64,000 bases of DNA, taken from the sequence record PP355091.1, one strand, 5' to 3'. A program made the position numbers and the translations under genes. This DNA is from Escherichia phage 235Ecol030PP. The stretch's first letter is position 1, and the number at the start of each line of letters is the position of its first letter. The notes under the pieces were generated by a model. The model did not search any database. It was not told the origin of the DNA and was given only the letters and a program-made list of their open reading frames with translations. Below, piece after piece: positions 1,911 through 40,256 of the stretch.

Positions 1911-2097
1911 TATCTAAAATGTTGAAGTTAAAAGATACGGCCCAATCAGTGCAGACAGTAACCTTTTTAATACAATTATCTTCAACCTCTAGTGGTTCAA
2001 ACCAATATTCAATAATTTCTTTATGCCCAATATCATCTTTTACTTCGCATTCAAAATGCTGACTCATCATAACATTTTTAAATTCATCAAAAGTCAT
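1834..2097 (-). CDS. Hypothetical small protein (46.2-like position)
   Basis: 87-aa ORF, 4-nt overlap with gene 47 stop; no motif recognised. Confidence 0.45.
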   Translation of the reverse strand: MTFDEFKNVMMSQHFECEVKDDIGHKEIIEYWFEPLEVEDNCIKKVTVCTDWAVSFNFNILDNDTPKSLQDMAVSCIKDAYCEVFDI

Positions 2098-3113
2098 TGT
2101 GTTGCCTCTACATATAACTGATTTGCATATTGAATAAGTGCTTCACGGTCAGAATCAGTGATGTCTGGAATTGCATTAATGTATTCTTCCATCAATGTCT
2201 GAAGCGATTGAACTTCAACTTCTTCACTGTCATCTGACTCAACAGAGTTATCAATCTTTGACACAACTCGTAATGAATGCACAACTTTCTCTAGTTCAGA
2301 TTCGAACTTCGTTAGATTTTTGTCTACTTCAGTTACTATAACACGTACTGATAGATTTGTAAAATCTTTATAGTCAATTTTTCCTTTAAATGGATAATGA
2401 ATTCTACGATGCCAGGTAGTGTTGTTTGGAATAAATTCCATTCGTTCTGTTTCTGTATCAAACATCCAGAACCCACGAGGGTCATTCTCGTCACCTGCAG
2501 TTAGTGTCCATGGTGTCCCAATATATCTGACGTTAGCAGCCTCAGAGATAGTATGGAAGTGACCAGACCACACTTCTTTATAAGTCTTAAGGAAATCAGG
2601 TTCAAGACCGTGAGATTTCATTCCTTTATAAAAATAAAATCCATTCAGCTCCCAGTGACCAACACAAAAAGAAGCAGATGAAGTTTTGATGTGCTCAAGA
2701 ATTTCACCAGTATTTTCTTCGCACATCCAAGGAATCAAATCAATCAAACATCCGTCAAAATCTACTGTAGTAGGCTTATCATATACTTTAACATTAGGAT
2801 ATTTAGCCAAAAGCTCAGTAGAAGCATTTGGATGCATTACATTTTTGTAGTGGAGATCGTGATTTCCTACAATAGTATGTAATGTGATTCCAGCACCATC
2901 AAGCATTTGAACTATTTCACGGGCAAACTCCATAGTTTTATGTGTGATTGCTTTTCGCACATCAAAAATATCACCATATTGAATCCATACAGTAATTCCA
3001 TTTTTCTTAGAATATTCTATCGCTTGCTTAATTCCATCAATTTGAATACCGCGAATCCACTCATCATCAGCTTTAACGCCTAAATGCCAATCACCTAAAT
3101 TTAAAATTTTCAT
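2094..3113 (-). CDS. 47: Recombination endonuclease subunit gp47 (Mre11/SbcD-like phosphoesterase)
   Basis: 339 aa; phosphoesterase motifs LGDWHLG, GDIFD, GNHD; position next to gene 46 as in T4. Confidence 0.9.
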   Translation of the reverse strand: MKILNLGDWHLGVKADDEWIRGIQIDGIKQAIEYSKKNGITVWIQYGDIFDVRKAITHKTMEFAREIVQMLDGAGITLHTIVGNHDLHYKNVMHPNASTELLAKYPNVKVYDKPTTVDFDGCLIDLIPWMCEENTGEILEHIKTSSASFCVGHWELNGFYFYKGMKSHGLEPDFLKTYKEVWSGHFHTISEAANVRYIGTPWTLTAGDENDPRGFWMFDTETERMEFIPNNTTWHRRIHYPFKGKIDYKDFTNLSVRVIVTEVDKNLTKFESELEKVVHSLRVVSKIDNSVESDDSEEVEVQSLQTLMEEYINAIPDITDSDREALIQYANQLYVEATQ

Positions 3114-3250
3114 ATATCAAGAACCGTCATTGAAATGCAAAATAAAATTATTGAAATAAATCCATCTGGAGTGCTAAAGAACCCAATCCAACATGCTCTA
3201 GCAAATAGATAGAATGCAAGAAAAAGTATCACATATCCAAGAAATATCAT
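3110..3250 (-). CDS. Small hydrophobic peptide (46 aa), translationally coupled to gene 47
   Basis: ATG at 3250; MIFLGYVILFLAFYLFARACWIGFF...; stop TGA overlaps gene 47 ATG (ATGA); below 60-aa cutoff of ORF track. Confidence 0.35.
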   Translation of the reverse strand: MIFLGYVILFLAFYLFARACWIGFFSTPDGFISIILFCISMTVLDI

Positions 3251-3265
3251 TATATCAAACTCCAT

Positions 3266-3290
3266 ATAAAGCTAAAGGGCCGAAGCCCTT
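3266..3290 (-). terminator. GC stem-loop (GGGC-UUCG-GCCC) directly after a-gt stop; putative intrinsic terminator or RNA-stabilising hairpin
   Basis: aagggccgaagccctt at 3275-3290 followed by U-rich tract on minus-strand RNA. Confidence 0.5.
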
Positions 3291-4492
3291 TATTTTGTAA
3301 TAATGTCAAACTGTTCTTTAAAGCAGAAGCTTGAATCTTGATGCTGATACAAAAATTCATATGCTTTTTCTCGCTCACGGTCATAAAGAGCTCGGTCAGA
3401 TGACAGTTCTTTAATACGCTCGAATGTTGATTCCATATCATTTTCATCAAACCAAATGATACCGCTATCATGTGAGGTCAAAGGAGTATTATCAACACGG
3501 AATTTTAAATTTTCGCCAGTAGATTTCCAAAATACCGGAATTGTTCCACATGCACCAAGCTCGAGATGAGTATATTCTAAAGAACGTTGTAAGTATTTCT
3601 GGTTAAGTTTACTCAACTGATATCCAAAGCCAGATTTACTCATTCGTTCAAGCATTTCACTATTAATATAACAATCTAGGATTTGTGCCGGTTGATTCGG
3701 CGTGAGATTCATTTTATCAATCTCACGATTACCATAATATTCATACGGAATACCTTTTTCCTTAATTGCAATAAAAGCAGGGGAACGTTCAAGACCTTCC
3801 ATTACAGTGGATTTACCAGCAGGTTTTAAGAATTTTTCGTGAAAATCAAACATCTGATAAAAACCTTTCCATGTAGTCGTACGACCAATCCAACGGTTGA
3901 TGTTCATGTTAATTTCAGAAACATCTTTCCAGTAGGTTGATCGAACCTTCGCAATATCCATAGGAGGCTGAAAGTTATATACTGCCGGCGCTTCTTCAAT
4001 ATCATCAAACAAAGAAACTGTTTCAGGATACCATTCTTTCATCAGAACTTTATTAAAATCGCCATTATCAGAATGACTAAAAATAACATCAGCTCGACGA
4101 ACAGTTTCTTCTAATCCCAAATTTCGACGCAAAGAAAGAACAGAATGATCATGCTGATAAACTACAACACGAATAGAAGGTTTAATATTATCTAAAAGTT
4201 TTTTATAGTTATTAATCGTGGCTTCTTGAACGGAAGTAGCAGGAACAGAATTAATAATTAGAATATCACAATCATTTACCAGCTTAAGTGCTTTATCGTA
4301 TTCTTTAGCTAAAATAACTGGAATTGAAAATGATTTGTGGTCATGAGAACTTGTACGAGTAAATGATTTATCTTTAGCATAAACCAAAGTTACTTCATGA
4401 CCATTTTTAATAAACCAATCACGTTGCTCAAGAGAAAATTTAGTTACACCGCAACCTTCAAGACCTCGAGCCAGAAAAATGCATACTTTCAT
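3290..4492 (-). CDS. a-gt: DNA alpha-glucosyltransferase (hydroxymethylcytosine glucosylation)
   Basis: 400 aa, same length and position (between 47 and 55) as T4 a-gt; assignment by recalled similarity and synteny. Confidence 0.85.
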   Translation of the reverse strand: MKVCIFLARGLEGCGVTKFSLEQRDWFIKNGHEVTLVYAKDKSFTRTSSHDHKSFSIPVILAKEYDKALKLVNDCDILIINSVPATSVQEATINNYKKLLDNIKPSIRVVVYQHDHSVLSLRRNLGLEETVRRADVIFSHSDNGDFNKVLMKEWYPETVSLFDDIEEAPAVYNFQPPMDIAKVRSTYWKDVSEINMNINRWIGRTTTWKGFYQMFDFHEKFLKPAGKSTVMEGLERSPAFIAIKEKGIPYEYYGNREIDKMNLTPNQPAQILDCYINSEMLERMSKSGFGYQLSKLNQKYLQRSLEYTHLELGACGTIPVFWKSTGENLKFRVDNTPLTSHDSGIIWFDENDMESTFERIKELSSDRALYDREREKAYEFLYQHQDSSFCFKEQFDIITK

Positions 4493-21423: not shown

Positions 21424-21448
21424 TAAAAAAGGGAGCCCGAAGGCTCCC
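21424..21448 (-). terminator. Intrinsic terminator (GGGAGCC-UUCG-GGCUCCC plus U6)
   Basis: gggagcccgaaggctccc at 21431-21448 with plus-strand A-run 21425-21430 (U-run on minus RNA), directly after stop of ORF 21451-22464. Confidence 0.7.
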
Positions 21449-21450
21449 TA

Positions 21451-22464
21451 TCATTTATAATAACTTCGGTGGTTTTCAAGATAGACCTTCTCAAGGAAGT
21501 CATCCCAAAAACTCATGTCTACTGTTTTAGGCATACCGTTCTTAGAAGCTTCAGTAGATGCTGCTTCTACTTGATCGACCACATCTTCCAAAAACTCTTG
21601 AACTGTTTTAAATGGATGTTTACCCAACTTCACGTCGAGAATAAATGGAGCATCTTGAAGTGGATAGACTAAGTCACCAGTTTTGTAAATTTCCAATAGT
21701 TGGAGTCCACCACGGCAAGCATGACTCAGAGCTTTCCAGTCAATGCCTTCATTGGCTTCGGCCTTACGAGCACGTTCACCGTATTCAGCATCTAATTTGT
21801 TCAGTGACTGCTTAAGCTCAATAAGAGAAAGCGTTGTCTGATATTTACGACCCAACACAGTGTAGAACATTTGTGGGCCTGTTTTCTCATGATTATGGAA
21901 CACCCATTCACAGAACTCGTTTTCAGGGAGTCTGTGTTTGATATCTTCTACCTTAGTACGACGAAGTCTATCAGGGATTCCTTCTTGATAATCAACCCAC
22001 TGATCGGGGATTTGATTAACTACTTTCAATACATCACGCAATGCGGCCAAACGAGAGCCCTTAACACCATATTTAGAAGCTTGCTTGCGAACATATCCTA
22101 AATAGGATTTCATGTTAGTTGTATAAAACCGTGAACGATTGTCTTGAATAAACTTCCATACATCAGGCAAATCAGATTTAACTACCAGTTCAGGTGGAGT
22201 ATGGAGCATATCCAATGCCACAGTTTCACCATCTGCTGCTAATTTAAAGAAATATTTAAGACTGTATAGTTCATGGTCAATATCATCTTTAGTGTTTTTA
22301 GATGATGTGTTGTTAGTGTTTTTACTCATATGCTCTTTAACATTTCCGATAAGAATATCGCGAGCAGGAGGAACAAAGATTTCTTTAAAATCTACATCAG
22401 ATTCTGGAGTAGAAGTTCCATAAAGATGACTACCAAAATAACTTTTCATTACTGTTTTCATCAT
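21451..22464 (-). CDS. Putative nucleotidyltransferase-fold protein (Pol-beta superfamily-like), function unknown
   Basis: 337 aa; N-terminal GSHLYGTSTPESDVDF resembles minimal NTase G[SG]...D.D motif; assignment tentative. Confidence 0.45.
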   Translation of the reverse strand: MMKTVMKSYFGSHLYGTSTPESDVDFKEIFVPPARDILIGNVKEHMSKNTNNTSSKNTKDDIDHELYSLKYFFKLAADGETVALDMLHTPPELVVKSDLPDVWKFIQDNRSRFYTTNMKSYLGYVRKQASKYGVKGSRLAALRDVLKVVNQIPDQWVDYQEGIPDRLRRTKVEDIKHRLPENEFCEWVFHNHEKTGPQMFYTVLGRKYQTTLSLIELKQSLNKLDAEYGERARKAEANEGIDWKALSHACRGGLQLLEIYKTGDLVYPLQDAPFILDVKLGKHPFKTVQEFLEDVVDQVEAASTEASKNGMPKTVDMSFWDDFLEKVYLENHRSYYK

Positions 22465-22946
22465 TCAGCCTTATATTCAATAACAGGACATACTTTAGCT
22501 TTACGAGCTTTTAAAAATTCAACGATAATCGATTTCTTGGGTTGAATAGGCTCAAGTCCATTTTTGATTCGTTCTTCGTTTTGTACAATGAGCTCAATTT
22601 CTTTATTGAGCTTTCGGTCGTTATATTTGTCTAACAACCAGGAAGGACCAATTACCGCCCCAACAGCAATAAGAACCATAACCGATAATGCTAAAATGCC
22701 TATACCAATTGAAGCCGGAACTAATGTCCATAGACTACTAAAGACAAAGAATTTAATTAAAATTTCTTGGCCAATTATTGCGGCACCTGCTAAAGTTGCA
22801 AATCCAACAATTGAAACAGCTAATACCGGGAGAAACGTTTTCCAAAAATAAGCACATAACGTTTTTGGACGATTCCATGTGCTATTAAATGCCGAGTAAA
22901 TTTTATAGTGCCAAGAGTTTTCATTAATAATCATAATTATAATCAT
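22461..22946 (-). CDS. Membrane protein, hypothetical
   Basis: 161 aa; multiple hydrophobic segments. Confidence 0.5.
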   Translation of the reverse strand: MIIIMIINENSWHYKIYSAFNSTWNRPKTLCAYFWKTFLPVLAVSIVGFATLAGAAIIGQEILIKFFVFSSLWTLVPASIGIGILALSVMVLIAVGAVIGPSWLLDKYNDRKLNKEIELIVQNEERIKNGLEPIQPKKSIIVEFLKARKAKVCPVIEYKAE

Positions 22947-23464
22947 CCTTTCATTGAAGGTGTAACAGTTGTTAAATACTTAATCATAGCTTCAGCTTCT
23001 GATTTTGATAATGAAATTTCTCCATTGTTTTGACGAATAGAAATAAAATCCGGATGACGGTCACCACCAGCTTTTAAAACACACATATAAGTATCAGTTT
23101 CGCCTTCAATATTTGAAATGATTGAAGCAGTTCCACATGAATGCGGTTTTTGATAAATCAATACAGCTTTTCTTCCACCGTTTGACTGTTCATAGGCTTT
23201 TAATACATCAAGCAAATCAGTTCTTTTATCAATAGCTAAGATGTTATTTTCATCTTCAATATTAAATCCTTCGGATACTTCATAAAGAGTTACCCATAAA
23301 TCACCGATGTCAATAACAGCATTTACTTTTCCACGGCTTTCAAGAGTATGACAAATTTTCTTGATTTCATCATAACTCATTTTAATAATATCATCTCCTT
23401 GAATAAGGAAGATGTCATTTTTAAATTCAACGCGAATTAAACCACTTCCACTTGAAATAAACAT
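22943..23464 (-). CDS. Hypothetical protein, paralog of adjacent gene
   Basis: 173 aa; shares GFNIE...IRQ...A.A.K.YL..V.P.M with ORF 23471-24034. Confidence 0.5.
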   Translation of the reverse strand: MFISSGSGLIRVEFKNDIFLIQGDDIIKMSYDEIKKICHTLESRGKVNAVIDIGDLWVTLYEVSEGFNIEDENNILAIDKRTDLLDVLKAYEQSNGGRKAVLIYQKPHSCGTASIISNIEGETDTYMCVLKAGGDRHPDFISIRQNNGEISLSKSEAEAMIKYLTTVTPSMKG

Positions 23465-23470
23465 ATTTCC

Positions 23471-24034
23471 TCACTTTGAAATCATAGTTGGAATGACAGA
23501 ATCAAGATAAGTCTTTAGTGCAATAGCTTCGTCTTTGGTAAATGTGACAATATGTGCTCGAGAATCATCAATTTGACGAATAGTTAAGACATCTCCTTCT
23601 TCATAGCATTTTGATACATTTAAAACAGTTTCATCATTCTGATCGCACTGATCGCAAGCGTTAGTAATAATAGCATTGCAATTTTTAAGCCATTTTAAAC
23701 TGTGTTTTCTTTCATTAGAATAATAAAAATATTTAATGTAAGTTATAAAATTATCCCAATTATTAATTGATAAGCATATTGACTCGCTTTCAATGTTAAA
23801 TCCTGGGCATAAAGAATAGAAATGAATTTTATGCTCATCATTAATGCTTACAATTTTATCAGTGTAAGGTTTTTCAATTTGGGTTAAATGAATAATTTCG
23901 CTAGGCGTAAAATATAGCATATCGTCTTCTTGCGTCAAACGATACATATTATTTACTTTTTCTATAGCCAATTCACCAAAAAGTGAACTAACTTCTAATA
24001 CTAATCGTTTCATATTAATCCTTTTTATTGGCAC
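23471..24034 (-). CDS. Hypothetical protein, paralog of adjacent gene
   Basis: 187 aa; see paralog 22943-23464. Confidence 0.5.
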   Translation of the reverse strand: MPIKRINMKRLVLEVSSLFGELAIEKVNNMYRLTQEDDMLYFTPSEIIHLTQIEKPYTDKIVSINDEHKIHFYSLCPGFNIESESICLSINNWDNFITYIKYFYYSNERKHSLKWLKNCNAIITNACDQCDQNDETVLNVSKCYEEGDVLTIRQIDDSRAHIVTFTKDEAIALKTYLDSVIPTMISK

Positions 24035-24293
24035 GAATTTGTTCTAAAATTTTAGAATATTCCTTTGTATCAGATTTACGTACAATTGATACACTATAAG
24101 GCATACTATCGGTGTCTTTTATAAAGCGTTCCAAATGACACTCTAACAAAATTTCTGGATTATAAATCGTGTACATCAAATTACCTGTTGCTCCACGATA
24201 TTGGCAGATTTCTACTGATTGAACACCATTCCATAATTTTGTTAAAACTAAATCACCTACTTCTAATTTAGGAAAGCCCATGTTATTCACCAA
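24015..24293 (-). CDS. Hypothetical protein
   Basis: 92-aa ORF. Confidence 0.45.
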   Translation of the reverse strand: MVNNMGFPKLEVGDLVLTKLWNGVQSVEICQYRGATGNLMYTIYNPEILLECHLERFIKDTDSMPYSVSIVRKSDTKEYSKILEQIRANKKD

Positions 24294-24468
24294 TTAAAGT
24301 TTCAATATAAGAATCAAGATTTACTTTAGCTTCTTCCATAAGAGTTTTGTATTTAATCTTGTTAGCATGTCCGGAGAAAGCTGATTCATCAATAATTGTT
24401 GATGTATGAACAGCTTTACTATACGTCTCAATTAATTCTCTTAATTTAAAAGCCTGCTCACTTGTCAT
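24283..24468 (-). CDS. Small helical protein, hypothetical
   Basis: 61-aa ORF. Confidence 0.4.
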   Translation of the reverse strand: MTSEQAFKLRELIETYSKAVHTSTIIDESAFSGHANKIKYKTLMEEAKVNLDSYIETLIGE

Positions 24469-24600
24469 TACATACTCCTTTGAATAATATCAATAATGTT
24501 GTTCACCAGATTATAAGTAAACATTGGGTAATTATATTGAATCATCACATACACAACAAACAAAACTTTCATTCTCTTCTCCTTGGCAGTTGACAAGATT

Positions 24601-24630
24601 ACTATACCATAACCTTGCCAACTTGTAAAC
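24601..24630 (-). promoter_or_regulatory. T4-type early promoter
   Basis: -35 GTTTACA (24624-24630), 17-nt spacer, -10 TATAGT (24601-24606). Confidence 0.55.
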
Positions 24631-24795
24631 CGTTAAATGTTGTTTTCAATAAAATTTTGAAGCTTTGTGTGAGCATCAACCATGATTTTCATTTCTTCTT
24701 TTGCGAAAGCTGTACCTCTTTCCCGAGCAGAATACTCATAGTCAGAAACTGCATTAGCATATTCTTCAATTAGCTTCATTAAAAACATCTGCTTT

Positions 24796-24990
24796 TCAGT
24801 TTTCATTATTCCACCTAATCATTTCAAGATATTGAACTAACTTAGCTTTAGATTTATCCAAATCCTTTTTAGCTGCTTCTATACCGTCGTATGAATATCC
24901 TTCACAATGCTCAACTGCTAATTGATATGAATCTATTTCAATATCACGTGCTAATTTAATGATTTTTTCAAACTGTTCGCGTGTTAGCAT
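24796..24990 (-). CDS. Small helical protein, hypothetical
   Basis: 64-aa ORF. Confidence 0.4.
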   Translation of the reverse strand: MLTREQFEKIIKLARDIEIDSYQLAVEHCEGYSYDGIEAAKKDLDKSKAKLVQYLEMIRWNNEN

Positions 24991-24992
24991 AC

Positions 24993-25175
24993 TTAAACTC
25001 TCGTATTATGATCGATAATTTCATCAAGAAACATATCTAACGCTTCTACAGCATTATCAACTTTAGCTTCAAGTTCTTCAATACCTGATAAGGCAAAGTT
25101 AATGCGTTCCTCATCTGCTTTACGAATTAAAGATACCAATTCCTTAATTTTATCCGCTTGTTCGATACTAATCAT
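24993..25175 (-). CDS. Small helical protein, hypothetical (start at internal Met)
   Basis: Track ORF 24993-25211; start trimmed to avoid overlap. Confidence 0.4.
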   Translation of the reverse strand: MISIEQADKIKELVSLIRKADEERINFALSGIEELEAKVDNAVEALDMFLDEIIDHNTRV

Positions 25176-25360
25176 TATTCCACCACATATGAAAGAGAGA
25201 ATATTGCACACGCCATGTGAGTTGCAACTTCATCACACATATTATAACGTTTCTTAAGAAGTTCTACAAGTTCTTCACTAGTAACTTCATCCATGTCGAC
25301 GAAAAAATCACCATTAATGATGACGTAGATATTTCCTTCTTGATTGAGTGCTTCAATTTT
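25175..25360 (-). CDS. Small protein, hypothetical (start at [10 protein letters not shown])
   Basis: Track ORF 25175-25408 includes promoter; GAGGAGAACATC precedes ATG. Confidence 0.4.
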
Positions 25361-25430: not shown

Positions 25431-25453
25431 GAAAAAAGTCTCCCGAAGGAGAC
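25431..25453 (-). terminator. Intrinsic terminator (GUCUCC-UUCG-GGAGAC plus U6)
   Basis: gtctcccgaaggagac at 25438-25453 with A-run 25432-25437 on plus strand. Confidence 0.65.
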
Positions 25454-25458
25454 TAATG

Positions 25459-38898: not shown

Positions 38899-38974
38899 TG
38901 GTCGAGGCAGTAGGGATCGAACCTACGACCCAGGACTTAGAAGGTCCTTGCTCTTCCTTCTGAGCTATGCCCCG
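38899..38974 (-). tRNA. tRNA-Arg (anticodon TCT), CCA encoded
   Basis: Manual fold: acceptor CGGGGCA/TGCCTCG, anticodon stem AGGAC/GTCCT, loop CUUCUAA, T-arm GTAGG-TTCGATC-CCTAC; 76 nt. Confidence 0.85.
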
Positions 38975-38977
38975 TAA

Positions 38978-39643
38978 TTAAAATTTCATTTTTCGACCTT
39001 TAAACCATCCTTCTGGAATTGGGTCAGTTTTCTTAATACGTTTAGAAACTTTTTCATCTAATGAATGAATCCACATCATACCAAATTGGGAATTCTTTTC
39101 GCCCTGTTGATGTTTATTTCTGGCGTGAGATTCTTTCATTTTATTAATAGTTTCAGGAGTATGATGCTTATTTAAAAATCTGCTATTATTTAAAAATTTT
39201 TCCCTGTATTCAGGAGTTGACCACAAGCGTTTAAATACATTTGAACCATGTTTACGATATTTTTCTTGAAGTAAAATATCATTTTTAAAACGTGACTTAA
39301 ACGATTTAGCTCCTTTTAAGCTAGCATCTTTCTTCTGGTTTAGCATCCCAGGAATATTTACATGATCCCATCCACCTTCACCACCAAGTTTTAAATTATA
39401 CACATCTGGTCTATTTAAAAACTCTTCTGTGACAATATTTTTCTCGGCTTCAAGCATAGATTCTTTATCGTCAAAGAACTCTAATATTTCTTTAGAAAAA
39501 TTTTCTATACCATACTTATCTTGGGCTCTTTTTAATAATTTACCAGAACCCATATATCCATCATCTAAATTTTCGGTAGAATGAGCGCCTATATAGATTT
39601 TATTATTAATTTTATTTGTTATTTTATAAATGTAATGGAACAT
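38978..39643 (-). CDS. segB: GIY-YIG homing endonuclease SegB within tRNA cluster
   Basis: 221 aa; MFHYIYKITNKINNKIYIGAHS (GIY-YIG) N-terminus; located between tRNA-Arg and main tRNA cluster as in T4. Confidence 0.85.
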   Translation of the reverse strand: MFHYIYKITNKINNKIYIGAHSTENLDDGYMGSGKLLKRAQDKYGIENFSKEILEFFDDKESMLEAEKNIVTEEFLNRPDVYNLKLGGEGGWDHVNIPGMLNQKKDASLKGAKSFKSRFKNDILLQEKYRKHGSNVFKRLWSTPEYREKFLNNSRFLNKHHTPETINKMKESHARNKHQQGEKNSQFGMMWIHSLDEKVSKRIKKTDPIPEGWFKGRKMKF

Positions 39644-39684
39644 AAATATCTCCTATTTCTAAGAGTATTTATGTTCTCAAAATA

Positions 39685-39756
39685 TGGCCCTGGGTGGAAT
39701 TGAACCACCATCTGGCGATTATGAGTCGCTTGCTTGAACCTTCCAGCTACAGGGCC
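39685..39756 (-). tRNA. tRNA-Ile (anticodon CAT; Met-type anticodon, assigned Ile by T4 precedent), CCA not encoded
   Basis: Acceptor GGCCCTG/CAGGGCC, anticodon loop CUCAUAA, T-arm GGTGG-TTCAATT-CCACC; 72 nt. Confidence 0.8.
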
Positions 39757-39762
39757 TTGATA

Positions 39763-39835
39763 TGCTGATTGACGGAATCGAACCGCCGACGTCCTCATTA
39801 CAAGTGAGGTGCTCTACCTACTGAGCTAAATCAGC
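39763..39835 (-). tRNA. tRNA-Thr (anticodon TGT), CCA not encoded
   Basis: Acceptor GCTGATT/AATCAGC, anticodon stem CCTCA/TGAGG loop CUUGUAA; 73 nt. Confidence 0.85.
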
Positions 39836-39842
39836 GAAATTA

Positions 39843-39929
39843 CGGAGGCGATAGGATTTGAACCTATGAGTCGCCGGAGCGACTGCCGGTTTTCAAGACC
39901 GGTGCATTAAACCACTCTGCCACGCCTCC
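39843..39929 (-). tRNA. tRNA-Ser (anticodon TGA), long variable arm, CCA not encoded
   Basis: Acceptor GGAGGCG/CGCCTCC, anticodon stem CCGGT/ACCGG loop CUUGAAA; 87 nt. Confidence 0.85.
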
Positions 39930-39931
39930 AG

Positions 39932-40005
39932 TCTCCGTGGCAGGATTTGAACCTACGACATTCTGCTCCCAAAGCAGACGCTCTACCAAACTGAGCTACA
40001 CGGAG
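39932..40005 (-). tRNA. tRNA-Pro (anticodon TGG), CCA not encoded; separated from tRNA-Ser by 2 nt
   Basis: Acceptor CTCCGTG/CACGGAG, anticodon stem TCTGC/GCAGA loop UUUGGGA; 74 nt. Confidence 0.85.
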
Positions 40006-40017
40006 TAAATTAAATTT

Positions 40018-40089
<72 letters not shown>

Positions 40090-40095
40090 AAACTT

Positions 40096-40182
40096 TGGTA
40101 CGAGAAGTGGGACTCGAACCCACAAGGAAATCATTCCGCAGCATTTTAAGTGCTGTGTCTTTACCAATTTGACCATTCTCGC
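40096..40182 (-). tRNA. tRNA-Leu (anticodon TAA), long variable arm, CCA encoded
   Basis: Acceptor GCGAGAA/TTCTCGT, anticodon stem CAGCA/TGCTG loop CUUAAAA; 87 nt. Confidence 0.85.
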
Positions 40183-40183
40183 G

Positions 40184-40256
40184 CTGGGAATAAAGGACTC
40201 GAACCTTTGCATCCTGGAATCAAAATCCAGTGCCTTACCAACTTGGCTAATTCCCA
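40184..40256 (-). tRNA. tRNA-Gln (anticodon TTG), CCA not encoded; 1 nt from tRNA-Leu
   Basis: Acceptor TGGGAAT/ATTCCCA, anticodon stem CTGGA/TCCAG loop UUUUGAU; 73 nt. Confidence 0.85.

What the first reader, a model, noticed from the sequence alone, without database searches (positions are those of the whole stretch)
22943..24034. Tandem paralogs of unknown function
The 173-aa and 187-aa ORFs share GFNIE(D/S)E...L(A/S)I(D/N) and a C-terminal ...IRQ...(E/D)A.A(M/L)K.YL..V.P.M motif, indicating a tandem duplication followed by divergence.
Basis: seen in the sequence. Interest (0 to 1): 0.3.

Follow-up and report, generated by a model that had tools for sequence, protein, structure and literature searches.

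The report
Diverged MobD.1-family paralog pair
Two neighbouring genes of a T4-like phage really are old, diverged copies of one another, both belonging to the catalogued but unstudied T4 MobD.1 ("y05I") protein family; their function is untested and the finding is fairly ordinary.

Summary
The 173-aa ORF (A, 22943-23464, minus strand) and its neighbour (B, 23471-24013) align over their full length: 28% identity, BLASTP E 3e-11, z=15 against shuffles. B is more likely 180 aa from the ATG than 187 aa from the GTG.

Both clear the curated cut-offs of Pfam T4_y05I_N and T4_y05I_C and match phrog_1502. B is the ortholog of T4 MobD.1. A is a conserved second copy, at least 90% identical in about 433 phage records. 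T4 lacks it and has the homing endonuclease gene mobD there instead. Both copies are under purifying selection (dN/dS 0.07-0.35).

The split is old. A branches outside Tequatrovirus B plus Dhakavirus MobD.1, so a recent in-place duplication is not supported and lateral acquisition cannot be excluded.

Structure prediction gives three beta-sheet-plus-helix units. Unit 1 is homologous to unit 3 (hhalign 89%). The best solved-structure matches of the C-terminal unit are Pur-alpha repeat III, but with weak E-values.

A cassette of tudor gene, y05I_C gene(s) and membrane-protein gene recurs across T4-like genera.

My inferred reading is early, non-essential, dimeric Pur-alpha/PC4-like-fold proteins acting with the membrane protein. 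Function is untested, and the proteins are acidic.

The parts
24601..24629 (-). Promoter-like site (TTTACA, 17 nt, TG-TATAGT; 10 of 12 matches); possible start of the transcription unit
   Evidence: Consensus scan. Consensus match only: 26 sites were found against 24 expected in shuffles, so this is not evidence of function.
24468..24572 (-). 34-aa hydrophobic peptide gene, ortholog of T4 mobD.2
   Evidence: Translations are nearly identical to T4 mobD.2. AAGGAG lies upstream.
24283..24468 (-). 61-aa DUF7438 protein, one of four tandem DUF7438 paralogs; absent from T4 at this position
   Evidence: Pfam PF24219, E 1.4e-15. T4 map.
24015..24281 (-). 88-aa Phage_tudor protein; the conserved upstream partner of y05I_C genes in most other genera examined
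   Evidence: Pfam PF24144, E 2.3e-40. The same tudor-then-y05I_C order occurs in EcS1, SEA1 and a metagenomic contig. In JS10 a 65-aa gene occupies that position instead.
23471..24013 (-). Paralog B: MobD.1 ortholog, 180 aa (N-terminal domain about 23705-24013, C-terminal domain 23474-23704). The mechanical ORF extends to the GTG at 24034.
   Evidence: Pfam T4_y05I_N 3.8e-40 and T4_y05I_C 1.5e-23; phrog_1502 3e-80. 84% identical to T4 MobD.1 and 100% to Yersinia phage PST. dN/dS 0.14-0.35.
22943..23464 (-). Paralog A: 173-aa second family member (N-terminal domain residues 1-98, C-terminal domain 99-173)
   Evidence: Pfam T4_y05I_N 1.8e-33 and T4_y05I_C 2.1e-23; phrog_1502 6e-67. At least 90% identical in about 433 phage records. 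dN/dS 0.07-0.12. GAGG lies 6 nt before the ATG.
22461..22946 (-). Membrane protein (157-161 aa, 2-3 hydrophobic segments). Its ATG overlaps the stop codon of A (ATGA). It always directly follows the y05I_C gene(s) in related phages.
   Evidence: phrog_944, 7e-52. Homologs sit directly after y05I_C genes in JS10, EcS1, SEA1 (twice) and L009. Conserved cytosolic N- and C-terminal motifs.
21451..22464 (-). nrdC.11 nucleotidyltransferase (RlaP-like), the last gene of the unit
   Evidence: Pfam RlaP 3e-11; phrog_388 2.6e-137.
21430..21449 (-). Terminator-like hairpin (8 bp, 6 GC pairs, then a T run) immediately after nrdC.11
   Evidence: Terminator-like sites are enriched: 8 found against 2.5 expected.

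Best explanation
A and B are two long-diverged members of the MobD.1 / 'y05I' family, which was found here only in T4-like phages (Straboviridae). They are co-expressed from one tightly packed transcription unit: mobD.2, DUF7438, tudor, B, A, membrane protein, nrdC.11.

Shown:
- Both are intact and under purifying selection.
- B is the ortholog of T4 MobD.1.
- A is a second copy carried by most Tequatrovirus genomes. T4 lacks it and has the homing endonuclease gene mobD there instead.
- In T4, the nrdC.11-mobD.3 stretch containing mobD.1 can be deleted.

Shown at moderate confidence: each protein is built from three beta-sheet-plus-helix units. Unit 1 and unit 3 are homologous to each other. 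Unit 3, the y05I_C domain, resembles a PUR repeat of the PC4-like / Whirly-like fold.

Inferred:
- Units 1 and 2 pack within one chain.
- Unit 3 pairs with unit 3 of a second chain, as in Pur-alpha. The proteins would then be dimers, and A and B could form homodimers or an A-B heterodimer.
- The dimer acts together with the translationally coupled membrane protein as an accessory host-interaction module.
- The ligand is either single-stranded nucleic acid, as for other PC4-like folds, or, given the acidic charge, a protein partner.
For: Paralogy.

Family membership.

Narrow distribution: only 28 representatives among 1.84 billion clustered proteins. Every hit with a source name is from a T4-like phage.

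Both genes functional: dN/dS 0.07-0.35.

Locus variants:
- T4 has mobD in place of A and the membrane gene.
- JS10 has a single copy followed by the membrane gene.
- SP21535 has an in-frame chimera of the N-terminal part of B and the C-terminal part of A. The junction is at a 7-nt microhomology, GAAACTG.
- In T2 both copies are fragmented.

Three-unit architecture: the AlphaFold2 secondary structure is E4-H, E4-H, E5-H, with N-terminal domain pLDDT about 88. hhalign of unit 1 against unit 3 gives probability 88.8%, E 2.5e-6.

PUR-like C-terminal domain: Foldseek top hits are 5fgo and 8chw (Pur-alpha repeat III), 3nm7 and 3k44, with probability 0.94-1.0 and target-normalised TM 0.30-0.74 (0.58-0.74 for repeat III). 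RNA-phage coat proteins also appear. The review PMC7549692 places all of these in one PC4-like fold class and describes Pur-alpha as two repeats pairing within the chain plus a third pairing between chains.

Cassette: stand-alone C-terminal-domain genes are preceded by a tudor gene and directly followed by the membrane gene, with start and stop overlapping or abutting, in EcS1, SEA1 and L009. A second independent tandem pair (78 aa and 76 aa) is present.

Dispensability: the T4 nrdC.11-mobD.3 fragment is deletable (PMC9825161).
Against: - The Foldseek E-values for the PUR hits are only 0.09-0.5, and the C-terminal-domain model has moderate confidence (pLDDT 76, pTM 0.58).
- The full-length model gave no significant PDB match, and no PUR, PC4 or Whirly entry appeared in its top 50.
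- No Pfam PurA, PC4 or Whirly hit appears even at E <= 10.
- hhalign of the C-terminal domain against PUR repeats gives probability 7.7%, P 0.0045. This is above 30 of 30 column shuffles but weak.
- Unit 2 shows no sequence similarity to units 1 or 3.
- All family members are acidic, with pI 4.2-5.8 and net charge -3 to -24. This is unusual for nucleic-acid binders.
- Dimerisation, the A-B heterodimer and any contact with the membrane protein were not tested.
- A stays 97% identical between phages whose membrane-protein alleles differ at 60 of 153 residues. There is therefore no sign of co-variation between A and the membrane protein.
- The promoter is a consensus match only.
Confidence: 0.55

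Rival explanations
1. A was not produced by duplication in place. It was brought in by recombination from another T4-like phage carrying a distant family member, and landed next to the resident mobD.1.
For: - The A clade lies outside Tequatrovirus B plus Dhakavirus MobD.1, both in the full-length tree and in the tree of each domain.
- The region is a mosaic hot spot: B has two alleles only about 48% identical, and the membrane protein has two alleles about 61% identical.
- mobD is inserted here in T4, and the whole cassette is duplicated in SEA1.
Against: - No donor lineage was found with an A-like gene as its only copy. A-type proteins occur only in Tequatrovirus, always next to B, or fused to it as the chimera.
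- Faster evolution of A after an old duplication gives the same tree.
- NJ with midpoint rooting is crude.
Confidence: 0.3
2. The proteins bind no nucleic acid. They are acidic protein-binding host-takeover or counter-defence factors (decoys or inhibitors) that merely use a beta-sheet-plus-helix scaffold.
For: - pI is 4.2-5.8 across the family, with net charge down to -24.
- Consensus promoter match and a cluster of small accessory genes.
- The T4 stretch containing mobD.1 can be deleted.
- The N-terminal domain of B is allelically hypervariable, 38% identity between alleles, as expected for arms-race proteins.
Against: - No match to any PADLOC model, although that library covers defence proteins rather than anti-defence proteins.
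- No known target.
- The closest solved folds are nucleic-acid binders.
- Pfam curators labelled the family a putative transcription factor.
Confidence: 0.35
3. One of the two copies is a decaying, redundant duplicate with no function of its own.
For: - T4 lacks A.
- In T2 both copies are fragmented.
- SP21535 manages with one chimeric gene.
Against: - Both copies are intact in this window.
- dN/dS is 0.07-0.12 for A and 0.14-0.35 for B.
- A is kept at 93-99% identity in about 433 records.
Confidence: 0.05
4. The similarity between the two ORFs comes from chance or from AT-rich composition.
For: Identity is low (28%) and the region is AT-rich, about 30% GC.
Against: - z = 15 against composition-preserving shuffles.
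- Both proteins independently clear the curated cut-offs of two Pfam models.
Confidence: 0.01

Closest known systems
T4 MobD.1 (founder of Pfam PF24449 T4_y05I_N and PF24448 T4_y05I_C; phrog_1502)
   Same: B is its ortholog: 84% identity, same position upstream of nrdC.11, same two Pfam domains. A has the same two-domain architecture.
   Different: A is only 24-33% identical to T4 MobD.1 in each domain, and T4 has no counterpart of it. T4 has the homing endonuclease gene mobD where this phage has A plus a membrane-protein gene. T4 also lacks the tudor gene and one DUF7438 gene upstream.
Pur-alpha (PURA; three PUR repeats; PC4-like fold with both within-chain and between-chain pairing)
   Same: Both have three beta-sheet-plus-helix units in one chain. 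The C-terminal unit superposes best on PUR repeat III, the dimerising repeat: 5fgo and 8chw, target-normalised TM 0.58-0.74, probability 0.99-1.0. The strand-strand-helix pattern is in register (VLTIRQ..IVTFTKDEAIALKTYL against FLRIRQ..TIALPAQGLIEFRDAL).
   Different: - There is no significant sequence relationship: no Pfam PurA hit, and hhalign probability is 7.7%.
- The phage proteins are acidic.
- The C-terminal unit has five strands.
- The N-terminal domain did not retrieve PUR repeats I-II by Foldseek.
- Nucleic-acid binding and dimerisation are untested.
Phage and bacterial PC4-like proteins with a single unit that dimerises (T5 PC4 homolog 4bg7, YdbC, Borrelia Bpur, PP7 and Qbeta coat proteins)
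   Same: The stand-alone y05I_C proteins of 67-87 aa in EcS1, SEA1, Serratia LC53 and Yersinia phages look like single-unit proteins that would need to dimerise. Bpur (3nm7) and the PP7 and Qbeta coat proteins are among the Foldseek hits.
   Different: E-values are weak (0.3-0.5). No functional data exist. T5 PC4-like and YdbC did not appear in the top 50.
DUF7189 (PF23819)
   Same: Unit 1 of 10 full-length family members matches the C-terminal part of this 68-residue model weakly (best E 6.8e-5). In EcS1 a 60-aa gene with a precomputed weak DUF7189 hit sits just upstream of the tudor gene.
   Different: The matches are below the Pfam gathering score. The function of DUF7189 is also unknown.

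Membership tests
Pfam T4_y05I (PF24449 N-terminal domain + PF24448 C-terminal domain) / T4 MobD.1 family | Score above the curated gathering cut-off for both domain models | tested here: met
   A scores 115.6 and 82.9 bits; B scores 137 and 83.4 bits. The cut-offs are 24.9 and 27. T4 MobD.1 itself hits the same two models.
Pfam T4_y05I (PF24449 N-terminal domain + PF24448 C-terminal domain) / T4 MobD.1 family | Position in T4-like genomes between the rI / rI.-1 (mobD) cluster and nrdC.11 | tested here: met
Pfam label 'putative transcription factor' | A recognisable DNA-binding or RNA-polymerase-binding element, or experimental evidence | tested here: not met
   No helix-turn-helix or other DNA-binding Pfam model matches even at E <= 10. 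The proteins are acidic. Literature searches for 'y05I' and 'mobD.1' found no functional study. The label probably reflects the fold only; that is my inference.
PC4-like / PUR (Whirly-like) fold | Repeat topology of four beta strands followed by a helix | tested here: met
   The AlphaFold2 secondary structure has three units: E4-H, E4-H, E5-H. The third unit has five strands, as in PP7-type members (PMC7549692). Model confidence is moderate.
PC4-like / PUR (Whirly-like) fold | Structural superposition on solved members | tested here: inconclusive
   C-terminal domain: PUR repeat III gives target-normalised TM 0.58-0.74 and probability 0.99-1.0, but E 0.09-0.27. The full-length model retrieved no PC4, PUR or Whirly entry in its top 50.
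PC4-like / PUR (Whirly-like) fold | Two units pair, within or between chains, to form the domain | not testable with these tools
   No multimer prediction and no model coordinates were available. Pairing of units 1 and 2, and of two C-terminal units, is inferred by analogy.
PC4-like / PUR (Whirly-like) fold | Binds single-stranded DNA or RNA on the beta-sheet face | not testable with these tools
   Needs biochemistry. The net negative charge is a caution.
Pur-alpha family proper (Pfam PurA, PF04845) | Sequence-profile match | tested here: not met
   No hit at E <= 10 for 22 family members. hhalign against human and fly PUR repeats gives probability 7.7%.
Tandem gene duplication in place | Adjacent, same strand, homologous over the full length | tested here: met
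Tandem gene duplication in place | The two copies are each other's closest relatives in a family tree | tested here: not met
   A branches outside Tequatrovirus B plus Dhakavirus MobD.1. This is an NJ tree with midpoint rooting, so the result is provisional.
Tandem gene duplication in place | Residual DNA-level similarity at the gene period | tested here: inconclusive
   One 23-nt stretch at 83% identity, 534 nt apart, at the GFNIE codons. Codon-aligned nucleotide identity is 45% and dS is 1.5.

The most novel reading that the evidence does not exclude
MobD.1-family proteins would be the first viral counterpart of the Pur-alpha layout, with two beta-sheet-plus-helix units pairing within the chain and a third pairing between chains. 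A 2020 review (PMC7549692) says that layout is so far reported only for Pur-alpha.

On this reading the recurrent tandem pairs encode obligate heterodimers. The pairs are B plus A here and the 78-aa plus 76-aa genes in SEA1-like phages. The heterodimers would work with the translationally coupled membrane protein and the tudor protein as a conserved T4-like accessory module, for example in exclusion, counter-defence or RNA handling. The reference phage T4 has largely lost this module.
Probability: 0.15. Interest if true: 0.5.

Novelty: already known. Interest (0 to 1): 0.22.

Why it matters
As it stands the finding matters little. Both proteins are already in public databases (B is 100% identical to a Yersinia phage PST protein), and both already sit in the same Pfam and PHROG families. 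The paralogy is therefore implicit in existing classifications.

Three points are useful for annotation:
- T4 is a poor reference for this locus. It lacks four genes that this window and the T6-type relatives examined carry here: one DUF7438 gene, the tudor gene, A and the membrane-protein gene.
- Database labels on these genes are spurious transfers. Examples are 'molybdopterin-guanine dinucleotide biosynthesis protein MobD', 'integrase/recombinase', 'helicase loader', 'kilA' and 'putative SSB'.
- The PUR-like three-unit architecture and the conserved tudor / y05I_C / membrane-protein cassette give a concrete, testable starting point for a family with no known function.

Tried and rejected
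- A third paralog in the window. phmmer of A and B against all six-frame ORFs of at least 50 aa found only the pair. T4 nrdC.8 and nrdC.9 are not family members.
- Solved relatives by sequence. A profile of the family against PDB sequences gave only two chance-level hits, E 0.4-0.6.
- Full-length fold search against PDB. Nothing was significant; the hits were polo-box, sliding clamp and LolA at TM below 0.2. Against viral models, only family members and uncharacterised Bacillus phage proteins appeared.
- Defence or anti-defence and NCBI naming models. PADLOC and NCBIfam gave no hits for A, B, the tudor protein or the DUF7438 protein. The membrane protein had only one chance-level NCBIfam hit.
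- Literature. 'y05I' returned only unrelated papers. 'mobD.1' appears in one review, only as a flank of mobD.
- Internal repeat for unit 2. No sequence similarity to units 1 or 3.
- Sequence homology to PUR repeats. It is weak, so I do not file the family under PurA.
- An early idea that T4 mobD.2 is a remnant of the tudor gene. This was rejected: mobD.2 equals the 34-aa ORF at 24468-24572.
- An internal promoter-like site inside B (23938-23911). It is not distinguishable from chance, since the number of sites equals the shuffle expectation.
Full report
**1. The observation**

The window is a Tequatrovirus (T4-like phage). The 2-kb stretch around the finding is 95-98% identical to phages UGKSEcP1, T6 and Yersinia phage PST.

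Two minus-strand ORFs lie at the stated coordinates. A is 22943-23464 (173 aa). B is 23471-24034 (187 aa from a GTG).

The similarity between them is well above chance:
- BLASTP aligns them end to end at 28% identity, E 3e-11.
- The local alignment score is 112, against 31 +/- 5 (maximum 60) for 2000 shuffles, z = 15.
- The N-terminal and C-terminal halves are each significant on their own, z = 11 and z = 6.4.
- Among all six-frame ORFs of the window, each finds only the other.

One correction concerns the start of B, which is probably the ATG at 24013 (180 aa). It lies one base after the upstream stop codon and has an AAGGA ribosome-binding site. It is also the start annotated in relatives.

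**2. What the genes are**

Both proteins clear the curated cut-offs of two Pfam models, T4_y05I_N (PF24449) and T4_y05I_C (PF24448), described as 'y05I-like putative transcription factor'. Both also match phrog_1502 over their full length.

T4 MobD.1 hits the same two models. B is 84% identical to it and lies in the same place, so B is the MobD.1 ortholog.

A is a second family member:
- About 433 phage records carry it at 90% identity or more, all next to a MobD.1-type gene.
- MobD.1-type genes occur in 727 records.
- The T4-type mobD homing endonuclease gene is found at 95% identity or more in only 47 records.

The arrangement B, A, membrane gene, nrdC.11 is therefore common in the genus, and T4 is the exception. 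In T4, mobD sits where A and a membrane-protein gene are here. T4 also lacks the 61-aa DUF7438 gene and the 88-aa tudor gene upstream. T4 mobD.2 corresponds to the 34-aa ORF at 24468-24572.

**3. Are both genes functional, and how old is the split?**

Between this window, UGKSEcP1, T6 and T4, dN/dS is 0.07-0.12 for A and 0.14-0.35 for B. Both copies are maintained by selection.

Between A and B, dS is saturated at 1.5 and codon-level nucleotide identity is 45%. The only DNA trace of common origin is a 23-nt stretch at 83% identity, 534 nt apart, at the GFNIE codons.

In NJ trees of the full length and of each domain, the A clade, including a 57%-identical T2-type variant, falls outside the group formed by all Tequatrovirus B alleles plus Dhakavirus MobD.1. 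Three readings fit this:
- The split predates the genera.
- A evolved faster than B.
- A was acquired laterally.

A recent duplication in place is not supported.

The locus is very plastic:
- B has two alleles only about 48% identical. Some share an identical C-terminal tail, which indicates recombination within the gene.
- The membrane protein has two alleles differing at 60 of 153 residues.
- Shigella phage SP21535 has a single in-frame chimera. Its 5' part is B and its 3' part is 100% A, joined at a 7-nt microhomology, GAAACTG.
- In T2 both copies are fragmented.

**4. Distribution of the family**

A profile search of 1.84 billion cluster representatives found only 28 proteins. Every hit with a source name comes from a T4-like phage with a genome of about 160-175 kb.

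Several lineages have stand-alone C-terminal-domain proteins of 67-87 aa. These include EcS1, SEA1, Serratia LC53 and Yersinia fHe-Yen9-01.

**5. Conserved cassette**

The gene order tudor, y05I_C-containing gene(s), membrane protein (phrog_944) recurs in EcS1, SEA1 and a metagenomic contig, upstream of the RlaP-type nucleotidyltransferase nrdC.11. In those loci the y05I_C and membrane genes overlap or abut. In JS10 MobD.1 is likewise followed directly by the membrane gene, but a 65-aa gene stands where the tudor gene would be.

In SEA1-like phages two diverged stand-alone C-terminal-domain genes (78 aa and 76 aa) sit in tandem before the membrane gene. In SEA1 itself the whole cassette is duplicated. 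Tandem pairs have therefore arisen more than once.

In this window the ATG of the membrane gene overlaps the stop codon of A (ATGA). The membrane protein has conserved cytosolic N-terminal (NSWH.K...RP.SLC.YFWK) and C-terminal (KKSI.VEF.KARK.K.CP) motifs and a variable hydrophobic core.

A promoter-like site at 24629-24601 and a strong terminator-like hairpin at 21449-21430 bracket the unit. The promoter is a consensus match only.

The T4 stretch nrdC.11-mobD.3 is deletable (PMC9825161).

**6. Fold**

AlphaFold2 on A gave pLDDT 74 overall, about 88 for the N-terminal domain and 55-65 for the C-terminal domain. The model has three successive units, each of four or five strands followed by a helix: residues 2-43, 49-95 and 101-167.

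Profile comparison shows that unit 1 and unit 3 are homologous. hhalign probability is 88.8% and E is 2.5e-6, aligning YRLTQEDDMLYFTPSEIIHL with LTIRQIDD..IVTFTKDEAIAL. Unit 2 is not detectably similar.

The full-length model found nothing significant in the PDB. In viral models it found only family members and uncharacterised phage proteins.

The C-terminal domain was modelled alone with a deeper alignment (pLDDT 76). Its best interpretable PDB matches were:
- Pur-alpha repeat III from fly and human (5fgo, 8chw): probability 0.99-1.0, target-normalised TM 0.58-0.74, E 0.09-0.27.
- Borrelia Pur-alpha (3nm7).
- Fly Pur-alpha repeats I-II (3k44).
- The PP7 and Qbeta coat proteins.

A review groups all of these as the PC4-like fold. 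It notes that Pur-alpha, with repeats I and II pairing within the chain and repeat III pairing between chains, is the only protein reported to combine both modes (PMC7549692).

Sequence evidence for a PUR relationship is weak:
- No Pfam PurA, PC4 or Whirly hit appears at E <= 10.
- hhalign against human and fly PUR repeats gives probability 7.7%, P 0.0045. I checked the repeat sequences against the PDB. The alignment is in structural register and scores above 30 of 30 column shuffles.

I therefore treat this as 'works like / looks like', not as membership.

**7. Mechanism: what is shown and what is inferred**

Shown:
- Paralogy and family membership.
- Purifying selection on both copies.
- The internal repeat between unit 1 and unit 3.
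- The conserved cassette.
- Dispensability of the corresponding region in T4.

Moderately supported: a PUR-like fold for the C-terminal unit.

Inferred:
- Units 1 and 2 form a within-chain pair.
- Unit 3 dimerises, giving homodimers or an A-B heterodimer.
- The dimer acts with the coupled membrane protein.
- The ligand is single-stranded nucleic acid or a protein.

The main caution is that every family member is acidic, with pI 4.2-5.8 and net charge down to -24. This fits a protein-binding host-takeover factor at least as well as a nucleic-acid binder. I found no evidence for the Pfam label 'transcription factor' beyond the fold.

**8. Verdict**

It is a pair of old paralogs in a catalogued, functionally uncharacterised family restricted to T4-like phages. 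Both sequences are already in public databases and already share Pfam and PHROG families.

The added value is a corrected gene model for B, the locus history, the three-unit PUR-like architecture and the conserved cassette, which together make the family testable. Interest is low to moderate.

Noticed in passing
window 24283-24468, 24633-24806, 24796-24990, 24993-25196 (minus strand): Four tandem small genes of 57-67 aa (mobD.2a to mobD.5 type), all matching Pfam DUF7438 at E 1e-13 to 1e-17. This is a second and larger tandem paralog array immediately upstream of the finding.
   Followed up: partly
L006 (Shigella phage SP21535) 2480-3019; also P0011: A natural in-frame chimera made of the N-terminal part of B and the C-terminal part of A. 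It was created by a deletion between the two paralogs at a 7-nt microhomology (GAAACTG). It is followed by the membrane gene as usual.
   Followed up: yes
L008 (Salmonella phage SEA1) 2900-7000: The whole cassette is duplicated in tandem: Phage_g100, Y05J, tudor, y05I_C, membrane gene. The membrane gene of the first copy ends with ...FYQLKYLLTLE, the C-terminal tail of the rI.-1/DUF5856 protein. This suggests the duplication junction fused the two genes.
   Followed up: partly
window 22461-22946 compared with L002 (T6) 3062-3523: The membrane protein has two very different alleles within Tequatrovirus: 60 of 153 residues differ and dS is about 1.1. The flanking A gene is 97% identical between the same phages. 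This is why many megablast hits covered only 82% of the 2-kb query.
   Followed up: partly
window 23471-24013 and its orthologs in the phage collection: MobD.1 (B) occurs as two allele classes only 45-50% identical, in otherwise near-identical genomes; for example PhiZZ6 has A at 96.5% but B at 49%. Some class-2 alleles carry a C-terminal tail identical to class 1, which indicates recombination within the gene.
   Followed up: partly
public annotations of the orthologs: Misleading product names have been propagated onto these small genes. Examples are 'molybdopterin-guanine dinucleotide biosynthesis protein MobD', 'integrase/recombinase', 'helicase loader', 'kilA anti-repressor', 'prohead core protein', 'virion structural protein', 'putative SSB protein' and 'DUF3846'. 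None is supported by the family scans run here.
   Followed up: partly
L004 (phage T2, LC348380.1) 2052-3481: In this T2 record mobD.1 is truncated (97 aa), the A-type gene is split into 57-aa and 63-aa pieces, and the membrane gene is shortened. This is either real decay in a laboratory strain or sequencing frameshifts.
   Followed up: no
window 38902-40256 (minus strand): A cluster of eight tRNA genes, as expected for the T4-type tRNA region.
   Followed up: no
window 21430-21449 and 25437-25454: Two strong GC-rich hairpins, each followed by a T run on the minus strand. One follows nrdC.11 and the other follows rI.-1. They probably mark the ends of transcription units.
   Followed up: no
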